Virus record (IMG/VR): IMGVR_UViG_2548876948_000012
Strand: one strand, 5' to 3'
Length of the DNA stretch: 5,051 bases
Source: a virus
Taxonomy: Duplodnaviria > Heunggongvirae > Uroviricota > Caudoviricetes
The position numbers were made by a program. Positions 3,001 through 5,051 of the stretch are shown piece after piece. Positions within the stretch are counted from its first letter, which is position 1. Each line of letters opens with the position of its first letter.

Positions 3001-5051
3001 TAATACGCCGACTTCCGGTAAGCAGTCGTACGCAAAAGGTTCATCCATTGCTTTGGTCAGCCCGGTTGAATTCTCAACCTCTTCATGGCGTCGCGCGGTT
3101 TTGTCTCTCGATGAACATCAGAAAGCATGGTTGCTTTGGTGTTACAGCGAAAGCGTTCGATGGGGGCATCAGGTCACCATAACGCAATGGGCATGGAGCG
3201 AGTTTAAAGATTTGTTAAGTAACAGAAAAATTGCAGGTAAGACACTGGATCGCCTGAAGACGTTAATCTGGCTGGCTGCACAGGATGTGAAGAGCGAACT
3301 TGCAGGGCGTGAGGCCTATGAATACCAGACACTGGCATCATTGGTGGGAGTGACAACAAAAAACTGGTCCGAGACATTTACTGAACGCTGGGTTGCAATG
3401 AAGCACATTTTTCTACAGCTTGATAGTGATGCTTTATTGCTTGTGACGAGAACACGTTCAAAACAAAAGGCAGCATTTTTACAGCAAAATATTGCAAAAC
3501 TGGATTAAAAGCCATATACTTCATGCAAATTTGGTATGTTGTAAAAAATGTATAAACCCGCTGCCGAGTGGGTTTTTTTTATGCCCTGAGTTGTACTTGT
3601 ACGGTAAACATGCTGGCTGCTATGTAATAGAGTTTTTTTAGCCTGTAACCTCTTGACGGCATTGAATTGCTTTTGTTATGAGTTGTAAGCCAATGTTATC
3701 ATCTTGTATTGGGGTGGTTATGAAGGATGGTGCGCTGCTCAGGAGTTCTTCACTTTTTATTGCCTACATGGGATGCCTTGGATGGGGGAGTGCTTATTTC
3801 TATGGATGGGGTACTTCTTTTTACTACGGCTTCCCATGGTGGATTGTAGGTGCAGGTGTTGATGATGTTGCCAGAAGTTTATTTTTTGCAGTTATCGTCA
3901 TTGCTATATTTCTTATCGGTTGGGGTATTGGTGTTGTATTCTTTTTCGCAGTGAAAAGAAAACATTCTATGCAAGAGCTAAATGTATTTCGCCTTTATTT
4001 TGCTGTGGAATTATTGTTTGTGCCGGCAATTATTGAGTTTTCTATATTGAGACAGAAGATTCAGGTACCTCTTTTGCTACTGTCAGCAGCGATTGCGCTG
4101 GCGGTTACAATTTCGATAAGATCTTATGGGCGATTTTTATCGGTATCATGCTTCTATGATAAGCCATTTATAAAAAAACATTTTTTTGAGATTGTGATGA
4201 TTGCTTTTGTGGCATATTTTTGGCTTTTTTCATTTCTGACAGGATATTACAAACCACAGTTTAAGAAAGAATATGAAATGATTAATTATAATGATGGTTG
4301 GTATTATGTTCTTGCTCGTTATGATAATTGTCTGGTTTTGTCTACTTCTTTCAATGCAGGTAGTAAAAGGTTTGTCATTTATCAATCAGCACAAGATAAG
4401 AATCTTCAGGTTGATATTGTAAGGACCAGAATTTAATTGGCTGCATAAATAATATTTTAAGTTGCAAGTTGGCTATTCGTAGGAATAGAACCTTAGGCAT
4501 GCTGAATGCGTTTTCTGAACATTGTTTTATAAACTGTGTCTGCTTGCTGTTGTGATCCTGCTTTTAGTGATGGTGATGATGGATTTCACCAGCAGGATAA
4601 TGTTGGTACTGACTGATGGCGCTCTGGTCTGCGGCATTGTGGTATTGCTGTGGCCGATGATGAAAGAACAGAATGAATAATTCTTGACTTTTTTGTTTAC
4701 TGTTTATTAAAAAATCAACCGCATGGTGAATCCTCCTTGGAGGGGCTAAATGATCGAGTTTTAAGGGCACGTAGCGAGTTCTGTTTGATCATTGCAGAAC
4801 TTAGCGGGAGGCGCCATGCGTACATCACTAGTGTTATTCCTTTTATCATTTTCCTTGTGAGTTCTGGCTGCGCATTGCGCAGCTTTTTTTTATGACCTGC
4901 CACTGGCAGATGGTCATCCTGTGATTTGATTCCGCTTCCGGCTTTTTAACTCTGTTCCTCTACACGGGAGAAATTCGATGTCGATTAAACATTACGATGT
5001 TGTCAGGGCGGCGTCGCCGTCAGACCTTGCGGAAAAGCTGACACACAAACT

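What the first reader, a model, noticed from the sequence alone, without database searches (positions are those of the whole stretch)
3492..3580. Compact PR'-like unit: consensus promoter, pause-type -10-like element and terminator, predicting a 50-55 nt terminated RNA
TTGCAA-17-TATACT overlaps the last codons of the Q-like gene. A TGnTATGTT element sits at about +6 to +14, and an intrinsic terminator ends at about +54. This is the architecture of Q-dependent late promoters (paused sigma70 complex engaged by Q, read-through of tR'). The short terminated transcript could itself be a regulatory small RNA, as described for PR'-derived RNAs in other lambdoid phages.
Basis: partly seen in the sequence, partly recalled or inferred. 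Interest (0 to 1): 0.55.

Follow-up and report, generated by a model that had tools for sequence, protein, structure and literature searches.

The report
Phage 434 late promoter, 82-type
This is the late-gene switch of phage 434: a promoter, a built-in polymerase pause site and a terminator directly after the Q antiterminator gene, built like the well-studied switch of phage 82, so it is real but ordinary.

Summary
The window is phage 434 (OL657226, 100% identity). The gene ending at 3508 is a Q82-family antiterminator (PF06323, E 1e-91; 89% identical to phage 82 Q).

The elements are TTGCAA-17-TATACT (3492-3520), TGgTATGTT (3532-3540) and a 9-bp hairpin with a T8 run (3554-3580). They align without gaps to the sequence after Q genes identical to phage 82 Q. 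That sequence fits published facts about 82 pR' (extended -10-like element, +15-17 GCC, pause at +25 U).

Each element alone is no better than chance. The combination occurred in 2 of 1000 shuffles. Across 39 distinct relatives from several genera, the sigma70-critical bases (TTGCAA; TAnnnT; G+7, T+9, A+10, T+14) are nearly invariant, and a terminator nearly always follows.

So this is the 434 pR'-qut-tR' unit, predicting a terminated RNA of about 54 nt. It differs from phage 82 at 8 of 27 initial transcribed bases, including GTA instead of GCC at +15-17. Its terminator starts 3 nt after the predicted pause site. This compact form recurs in other genera and is near-identical (at least 99%) in 611 of 5426 complete E. 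coli genomes, including O157:H7.

A regulatory role for the short RNA is untested. Promoter-pause and terminator functions already account for all its bases. Interest is low.

The parts
2819..3508 (+). Q antiterminator gene of phage 434, Q82 family
   Evidence: Pfam PF06323, E 1.1e-91. 89% amino-acid identity to phage 82 Q. GenBank note 'Q82-like'.
3492..3497 (+). pR' -35 hexamer TTGCAA, inside the last Q codons (Ile-Ala-Lys)
   Evidence: Promoter scan. Mean column conservation 0.987 over 39 distinct relatives, including the 4-fold degenerate third base of the Ala codon. Identical in the phage 82-type sequence.
3498..3514 (+). 17-bp spacer holding the Q stop codon (3506-3508); probable location of the Q-binding element (inferred)
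   Evidence: Identical to the 82-type sequence at 15 of 17 spacer positions; 30 of 35 positions over -35..-1. Published templates place the 82 QBE within -31..+30. The QBE sequence itself was not available to me.
3515..3520 (+). pR' -10 hexamer TATACT
   Evidence: A at position 2 and T at position 6 are invariant in 39 relatives; mean conservation 0.93.
3527..3527 (+). Predicted transcription start (+1), first A of AAA
   Evidence: 7 nt after the -10 hexamer. With this numbering the 82-type sequence has GCC at +15-17 and T at +25, as published for 82 pR'. Not mapped experimentally.
3532..3540 (+). Sigma70-dependent pause element: extended TG (+6,+7) and -10-like TATGTT (+9..+14)
   Evidence: Conservation in 39 relatives: T+6 0.92, G+7 1.0, T+9 1.0, A+10 1.0, T+11 0.97, +12 0.62, +13 0.49, T+14 1.0. 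This is the TAtnnT profile read by sigma70 region 2. The 82 element is published as a -10-like sequence with an extended -10.
3541..3543 (+). Position of the discriminator-like element: GTA here, GCC in phage 82
   Evidence: In 82 pR', GCC-to-A changes at +15-17 shorten the pause 2- to 5-fold. The effect in 434 is inferred only.
3551..3552 (+). Predicted pause sites +25 (T) and +26 (A)
   Evidence: Same bases as the 82-type sequence at +24..+26 (GTA). The 82 pR' pause at +25/+26 is published. Not tested for 434.
3554..3580 (+). Intrinsic terminator tR': stem 3554-3562/3567-3575, loop GCCG, T run 3573-3580
   Evidence: Annotated as a terminator in OL657226 (window 3557-3582). In the homologous terminator family all 7 pairs are kept in 7 sequences, with one compensatory change and variable loops.
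3527..3580 (+). Predicted terminated pR' RNA of about 53-55 nt
   Evidence: Inferred from the start and the terminator. MFE -15.3 kcal/mol. No Rfam family reaches threshold.
3484..3497 (-). CII-consensus TTGCAATATTTTGC on the opposite strand, annotated in GenBank as the paQ -35 region; overlaps the pR' -35
   Evidence: annotation. One match in the window against 0.46 expected. Reading the sequence, I found no good -10 at the lambda pRE-like distance. Unverified.

Best explanation
This is the late promoter unit (pR'-qut-tR') of phage 434, of the phage 82 type.

Mechanism, by homology with 82 pR':
1. Host sigma70 RNA polymerase starts constitutively at about 3527.
2. Sigma70, still bound, recognises the non-template TGgTATGTT at +6..+14. 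The complex scrunches and pauses at about +25/+26.
3. Without Q, the polymerase escapes and stops at the hairpin/U8 terminator that begins 3 nt later. This releases an RNA of about 54 nt.
4. With Q, the protein is bound to DNA in the promoter region and helped by NusA. It loads onto the paused complex and makes it resistant to this terminator and to later ones. The moron genes, lysis genes and morphogenesis genes are then transcribed.

Shown here: the sequence elements, their homology to the 82-type unit, and their selective conservation. Inferred: the start site, the pause and the Q dependence.
For: - The window is phage 434 (100% identity). The gene ending at 3508 is a Q82-family protein, 89% identical to Q82.
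- Loci L083 and L085 carry a Q gene 100% identical to phage 82 Q. Downstream they read TTGCAA-17-TATATT-TCATAT-AAATCTGATATTTTGCCAATGTTGTAC.
- That sequence fits the published 82 pR' facts: extended -10-like element, GCC at +15-17, pause at +25 on a U.
- Bases 3492-3553 of 434 align to it without gaps, with 5 differences upstream of +1 and 8 in +1..+27.
- In 39 distinct relatives from E. coli, Citrobacter, Klebsiella, Raoultella, Enterobacter, Leclercia, Franconibacter and others, the -35, the A2/T6 of the -10, and G+7, T+9, A+10, T+14 are invariant or nearly so. Positions +12/+13 and the flanks vary.
- 48 of 55 distinct downstream sequences have a hairpin plus T run starting between +31 and +96. 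The stems are of several unrelated sequences. The homologous stems keep every pair.
- The composite pattern appeared in 2 of 1000 shuffles.
- The lysis genes lie downstream on the same strand.
Against: - There are no experimental data for 434 itself: no mapped 5' end, pause or read-through.
- The GC-rich +15-17 element that supports the 82 pause is GTA in 434. The pause could therefore be weaker or shifted (one search gives the effect of mutating it in 82).
- The phage 82 pR' sequence was reconstructed from loci with an identical Q gene. It was not read from a phage 82 record, because X92588 ends at the Q stop.
- The GenBank record annotates the terminator but no pR'.
Confidence: 0.9

Rival explanations
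1. The unit is pR', and the terminated RNA of about 54 nt is in addition a trans-acting, Hfq-dependent regulatory RNA in lysogens, like StxS of Stx phages.
For: - Short pR' RNAs are made constitutively in lysogens, and StxS shows that such an RNA can acquire targets.
- The RNA ends in a strong terminator with a U7-U9 tail and has an A-rich stretch (3543-3548). Both features are compatible with Hfq binding.
- The unit is near-identical (at least 99%) in 611 of 5426 complete E. coli genomes, including O157:H7 prophage Sp3.
Against: - Every base is already accounted for by the promoter-pause element (+1..+27) or the terminator (+28..+54). Nothing is left over as a seed region.
- The conserved positions are those read in DNA by sigma70, not an RNA structure. 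The weak 5' hairpin predicted for 434 is absent in relatives.
- No Rfam family matches. The STnc240 hit scores 28 bits against a threshold of 55.
- It is not among the Hfq-bound orphan sites listed for Sp3 (EcOnc13, EcOnc32). That screen excluded sites within 100 nt of a gene.
Confidence: 0.1
2. The promoter-like and pause-like hexamers are chance matches in AT-rich DNA, and the hairpin is simply the terminator of the early operon after Q. The true late promoter would lie elsewhere, for example at 3652-3702.
For: - Each motif alone is no more frequent than in shuffles.
- The -35 lies in coding sequence, which could explain its conservation.
- Other promoter-like sites exist at 3673-3702.
Against: - The non-coding -10 and the TGnTATnnT element are conserved across genera in the exact sigma70 pattern, while neighbouring bases vary.
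- The unit aligns without gaps to the 82-type pR'.
- The composite arrangement appeared in 2 of 1000 shuffles.
- The 3652-3702 sites have no pause element or following terminator. They belong to a block that phage 2B8 carries behind a different Q gene, i.e. a separately exchanged module.
Confidence: 0.03
3. The -35 region doubles as a CII site for an antisense paQ promoter on the minus strand. CII would then both drive anti-Q RNA and occlude pR' during establishment of lysogeny.
For: - TTGCAATATTTTGC on the minus strand (3484-3497) matches the lambda CII consensus perfectly and is annotated as paQ in OL657226.
- TTGCAA is its own reverse complement, so the two sites share bases.
Against: - The pattern is expected 0.46 times by chance in this window.
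- The spacing of the repeats is lost in more distant relatives such as L006.
- No TAnnnT hexamer lies about 13 nt beyond the second repeat, the distance seen at lambda pRE (read).
- This would be an added layer, not an alternative to pR'.
Confidence: 0.12

Closest known systems
Phage 82 late promoter pR' with its qut site and terminator (Roberts laboratory system)
   Same: - A Q82-family gene directly upstream.
- Identical -35 (TTGCAA) and 17-bp spacing.
- An A-run start.
- Extended TG at +6/+7, a -10-like TATnTT at +9..+14, and GTA at +24..+26 (pause site U25).
- An intrinsic terminator downstream.
   Different: - 8 of 27 initial transcribed bases differ, including GTA in place of the functionally important GCC at +15-17.
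- The -10 is TATACT rather than TATATT.
- The 82-type unit has an extra hairpin (+13..+37), and its terminator stem lies at +52..+74.
- 434 lacks that hairpin, and its terminator stem starts at +28. The terminated RNA is therefore about 54 nt rather than about 80 nt.
Lambda pR'-qut-tR' (6S RNA) and phage 21 pR'
   Same: The same logic: a constitutive promoter, a sigma70-dependent promoter-proximal pause, Q loading and terminator read-through.
   Different: - The Q protein families are unrelated (PF03589, PF06530).
- The lambda pause element is at +1..+6, with the pause at +16/17 and a 194-nt terminated RNA.
- The structural mechanism is solved for Q-lambda and Q21 but not for Q82. No Q82-family chain is in the PDB.
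StxS, the pR'-derived small RNA of Stx phages
   Same: A short RNA made from the antiterminated late promoter in lysogens and ended at tR'.
   Different: - StxS comes from a 258-nt transcript processed by RNase E to 74 nt. It has shown Hfq binding and known targets.
- The 434 RNA is about 54 nt and consists only of the pause element and the terminator. Hfq binding and targets were not examined here.

Membership tests
Q82-type late promoter unit (pR'-qut-terminator) | Lies directly downstream of a Q82-family (PF06323) antiterminator gene, on the same strand | tested here: met
   PF06323 E 1.1e-91. 89% identity to Q82. The -35 overlaps the last Q codons.
Q82-type late promoter unit (pR'-qut-terminator) | Sigma70 promoter homologous to 82 pR' (-35 TTGCAA, 17 bp, -10 TATAyT, A start) | tested here: met
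   Ungapped alignment to loci with a Q gene identical to Q82: 30 of 35 positions identical from -35 to -1. Conserved in 39 relatives.
Q82-type late promoter unit (pR'-qut-terminator) | -10-like pause element with extended TG in the initial transcribed region (+6..+14) | tested here: met
   TGGTATGTT at 3532-3540. G+7, T+9, A+10 and T+14 are invariant across relatives. This matches the published description.
Q82-type late promoter unit (pR'-qut-terminator) | GC-rich discriminator-like element GCC at +15-17 that stabilises the pause | tested here: not met
   434 has GTA (3541-3543). Most relatives have GCC or GTC. In 82, A substitutions there cut the pause half-life 2- to 5-fold. This is a modulating element rather than a family-defining one.
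Q82-type late promoter unit (pR'-qut-terminator) | Sigma70-dependent pause at +25/+26 | not testable with these tools
   The sequence at +24..+26 (GTA) is the same as in the 82-type unit. The pause itself needs in vitro transcription.
Q82-type late promoter unit (pR'-qut-terminator) | Q-binding element recognised by the cognate Q | tested here: inconclusive
That region is nearly identical in 434.
Q82-type late promoter unit (pR'-qut-terminator) | Intrinsic terminator shortly downstream, followed by late genes on the same strand | tested here: met
   Hairpin plus T8 at 3554-3580. Holin and endolysin genes lie downstream. A terminator is found in 48 of 55 distinct relatives.
Q82-type late promoter unit (pR'-qut-terminator) | Q-dependent read-through of the terminator | not testable with these tools
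   Needs transcription assays with Q434 or Q82, with and without NusA.
pR'-derived regulatory small RNA (StxS-like) | Stable RNA that binds Hfq and base-pairs with targets in trans | not testable with these tools
   No expression or crosslinking data could be read. It is not in the Sp3 orphan Hfq site list, but that screen excluded sites near genes.
Any curated RNA family (Rfam 15) | Score at or above the family's gathering threshold | tested here: not met
   The best overlap is STnc240 at 28.2 bits against 55 (E 0.39), driven by the terminator. In EDL933, STnc240 maps to a different locus (2,830,003), not to this prophage region.

The most novel reading that the evidence does not exclude
The pR' RNA of about 54 nt is the same in phage 434 and, apart from T-run length, in O157:H7 prophage Sp3 and hundreds of other E. 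coli prophages. It could be an abundant Hfq-associated regulator in lysogens. Its 5' 27 nt would then serve twice: as the DNA pause element and as an RNA seed.
Probability: 0.08. Interest if true: 0.5.

Novelty: new member of a known kind. Interest (0 to 1): 0.2.

Why it matters
It fills a gap in the annotation of a classic phage. The 434 GenBank record marks the terminator and a 'Q82-like' gene but not pR' or its pause element.

It also shows that an 82-type late switch sits, near-identical (at least 99%), in about 11% of complete E. coli genomes, including O157:H7.

For people who study Q82, whose structural mechanism is still unsolved, the 434 form offers natural variants. One is GTA instead of the pause-stabilising GCC at +15-17. 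The other is a terminator starting only 3 nt past the pause site.

Beyond that, it confirms textbook biology.

Tried and rejected
- **Rfam.** Only a sub-threshold STnc240 hit overlaps the unit. In EDL933, STnc240 maps to a different locus, not this prophage region. Rejected.
- **Direct phage 82 pR' sequence.** X92589-type data were not available: X92588 stops at the Q stop codon, and no other phage 82 record matched. The supplement of Wells 2016 with template sequences is not held, and Perdue and Roberts 2010 is not held. I reconstructed the sequence from loci with an identical Q gene and checked it against published facts.
- **In vivo evidence in O157:H7.** The Hfq orphan sites in Sp3 are EcOnc13 and EcOnc32, about 1.3-1.6 kb downstream, not this RNA. 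The Sy 2020 dRNA-seq and Term-seq tables are not held. The EDL933 ncRNA list has no entry near the site. Locus-tag searches gave nothing useful.
- **Solved structures.** No Q82-family chain is in the PDB.
- **ORF 3492-3641.** This 49-aa ORF has a TTG start upstream of the predicted RNA start. I noted only that and did not examine it further.
- **Predicted 5' hairpin of the 434 RNA.** Not conserved in relatives, so it is not taken as a feature.

Full report
**What the window is.** The 5051 bases are 100% identical to Escherichia phage 434, OL657226.1. Window position x equals record position x + 38,477. The gene order is as follows:
- ninG
- the ninI phosphatase
- an LpxR lipid A deacylase on the minus strand
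- a ylcG-like gene
- a 229-aa Q gene (2819-3508)
- a membrane-protein gene
- a DUF3927/TciB gene
- the start of a SASA esterase gene

The holin and endolysin genes follow in the record.

The Q protein is a Q82-family antiterminator: Pfam PF06323, E 1.1e-91. That family assignment is as given in PMC9388147. The protein is 89% identical to phage 82 Q.

**Checking the observation.**
- TTGCAA (3492-3497), 17 bp, TATACT (3515-3520), with the Q stop codon inside the spacer.
- An A run starting at 3527.
- TGGTATGTT at 3532-3540.
- A hairpin AAACCCGCU/GCCG/AGUGGGUUU at 3554-3575, with a T8 run at 3573-3580.

The terminator hairpin alone is -12.0 kcal/mol. The 56-nt RNA folds at -15.3 kcal/mol, z = -3.57.

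Taken singly the elements are unremarkable in this AT-rich DNA. The promoter is a 9-of-12 match, not consensus. Such matches are as frequent as in shuffles, as are terminator-like sites and TGNTATNNT (8 found, 4.2 expected). The ordered combination is rare. It occurs once in the window and appeared in 2 of 1000 dinucleotide-preserving shuffles. I defined that test after seeing the site.

**Homology to phage 82 pR'.** The phage 82 GenBank record stops at the Q stop codon. I therefore collected loci encoding relatives of the 434 Q protein: 20 from genomes of other species and 80 viral contigs.

Two loci, L083 and L085, carry a Q gene 100% identical to phage 82 Q. Downstream they read TTGCAA-17-TATATT-TCATAT-AAATCTGATATTTTGCCAATGTTGTAC. 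Numbering from the first A of AAA reproduces what is published for 82 pR' in PMC5001585:
- a -10-like element closer to consensus than lambda's, with an extended -10;
- GCC at +15-17;
- the main pause at +25 on a U, with +26 also used.

The reference list of PMC5001585 also cites a report of slippage-based heterogeneous initiation at the phage 82 late promoter. An AAA start fits that, from general knowledge of slippage at homopolymer starts.

The 434 sequence aligns to this without gaps from 3492 to 3553. There are 5 differences before +1 and 8 in +1..+27. On this numbering:
- +1 = 3527
- TG = +6/+7
- TATGTT = +9..+14
- predicted pause = 3551/3552

**Conservation.** In 39 distinct sequences, from E. 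coli prophages and from Citrobacter, Klebsiella, Raoultella, Enterobacter, Leclercia, Franconibacter, Superficieibacter and Scandinavium, conservation is as follows:

| Element | Conservation |
|---|---|
| -35 hexamer (mean) | 0.987 |
| -10 hexamer, positions 2 and 6 | invariant |
| T+6 | 0.92 |
| G+7 | 1.0 |
| T+9 | 1.0 |
| A+10 | 1.0 |
| T+11 | 0.97 |
| +12 | 0.62 |
| +13 | 0.49 |
| T+14 | 1.0 |

This is the TAtnnT profile expected of a site read by sigma70 region 2. It lies in non-coding DNA whose other positions drift.

A hairpin followed by a T run is found in 48 of 55 distinct downstream sequences. It starts between +31 and +96, and the stems are of several unrelated sequences. Within the homologous CCCGC/GCGGG stem family all seven pairs are kept in seven sequences. 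There is one compensatory change, one G-C to G-U change (the 434 copy), and freely varying loops.

**What is particular to 434.**
- The +15-17 triplet is GTA rather than GCC. In 82 pR', changing these bases to A shortens the pause 2- to 5-fold. The 434 pause may therefore be shorter or shifted; this is inference.
- The 82-type and several other lineages have an extra hairpin that pairs +13..+18 with about +30..+37. Their terminator stem lies at about +52..+74. 434 lacks this hairpin, and its terminator stem begins at +28, 3 nt after the predicted pause site.
- The same compact layout occurs in Superficieibacter (L007), Scandinavium (L016), an unnamed Enterobacteriaceae genome (L018) and Citrobacter (L021). 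It is not a one-off deletion.
- The 434 form is at least 99% identical in 611 of 5426 complete E. coli genomes. These include O157:H7 strains 86-24 and Sakai, in prophage Sp3. In Sakai the predicted start is NC_002695.2 900,033 and the T run has 7 rather than 8 T.
- Homology with 82-type phages ends near 3541. Homology with phage 2B8, which has a lambda-type Q, begins near 3555. The terminator and downstream genes are therefore exchanged separately from the Q-qut module.

**Mechanism.** The mechanism is carried over from phage 82 and lambda work.
1. Sigma70 holoenzyme initiates constitutively.
2. Sigma70 rebinds the -10-like element at an RNA length of about 21 nt.
3. The complex scrunches to +25 and pauses.
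4. Q, bound to its DNA site and assisted by NusA, joins the paused complex.
5. The modified polymerase ignores the terminator at 3554-3580 and later ones.

Without Q, an RNA of about 54 nt is released. The sequence features, the homology and the conservation are shown here. The start site, the pause and the Q dependence are inferred.

**The small-RNA suggestion.** Short terminated pR' RNAs are documented for lambda, 21, phi80, 82 and P22, and StxS is a functional case (PMC7547250).

For the 434 RNA I found no positive evidence.
- All of its bases belong either to the pause element or to the terminator.
- The conserved bases are those read in DNA.
- The weak 5' hairpin predicted for 434 is not conserved.
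- No Rfam family matches.

It is absent from the published list of orphan Hfq sites in Sp3. That screen excluded sites within 100 nt of a gene, so the absence says little. The idea remains open at low probability.

**Overlapping annotation.** GenBank marks a CII site and a paQ -35 on the minus strand at 3484-3497, sharing the palindromic TTGCAA with the pR' -35. It is a perfect TTGCN6TTGC. One match is close to the chance expectation of 0.46. I see no convincing -10 at the expected distance. If real, it would add CII control on top of pR'; it would not replace it.

**Verdict.** The finding is correct and well located. It is the phage 434 member of the phage 82-type late promoter family. The kind of system is long known, and the terminator and the Q type are already annotated. 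The promoter and pause element are not annotated, and the compact GTA variant has not been characterised as far as I could find. Interest is low.

Noticed in passing
window 4691-4895 (+): A STnc100-like structured RNA: Rfam 41.5 bits, just under the threshold of 47, E 1e-6. It ends in a strong terminator (4866-4884). It lies between the DUF3927 gene and the SASA esterase gene, near Q and LpxR. That is the context reported for the prophage sRNA PasD, a structural relative of STnc100. GenBank instead annotates a small 'putative membrane protein' there.
   Followed up: partly
L083 and other long-form loci, +13..+37 of the pR' transcript; absent from the window: Relatives of the 82 type have a hairpin between the pause site and the terminator that pairs the +15-17 GCC region with a downstream complement. 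The stem sequences differ between lineages (UGCCA/UGGCA, GUCG/CGAC, UUUUGCC/GGCAAAA), which suggests covariation. The 434 compact form lacks it.
   Followed up: partly
window 3484-3497 (-): A perfect CII consensus TTGCAATATTTTGC, annotated as the paQ -35 region, overlaps the pR' -35. One match against 0.46 expected by chance. No convincing -10 nearby.
   Followed up: partly
window 3493-3503 and 3524-3534: Direct repeat TGCAAAACTGG / TGCAAATTTGG, 31 bp apart. One copy spans the -35 and the other spans the start site and the TG of the pause element. Meaning unknown; possibly related to Q binding.
   Followed up: no
window 3541-3555: Mosaic joints. Homology to 82-type phages (PhiR47_2, PPompW) ends near 3541. 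Homology to phage 2B8, which has a lambda-type Q, starts near 3555, and the 2B8 copy of the terminator stem is degraded.
   Followed up: partly
L012 and L013 (E. coli ECMA0423 and Shigella flexneri chromosomes): A decayed copy of the unit. It has a 1-nt deletion between the -10 and +1, TAC instead of TAT in the pause element, and a mismatched terminator stem. This fits a defective prophage under relaxed constraint.
   Followed up: no
window 3652-3702 (+): Promoter-like sites ahead of the membrane-protein gene: TTGACG at 3652, and TTGTTA-18-TATCAT with an upstream TG at 3673-3702. They lie in the block shared with phage 2B8 and may be moron promoters active in lysogens.
   Followed up: no
window 3573-3580 and relatives L031, L034, L069: The terminator T run varies among otherwise identical copies (T7, T8, T9). 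One copy (L069) has a G-to-T change in the 3' arm of the stem.
   Followed up: no
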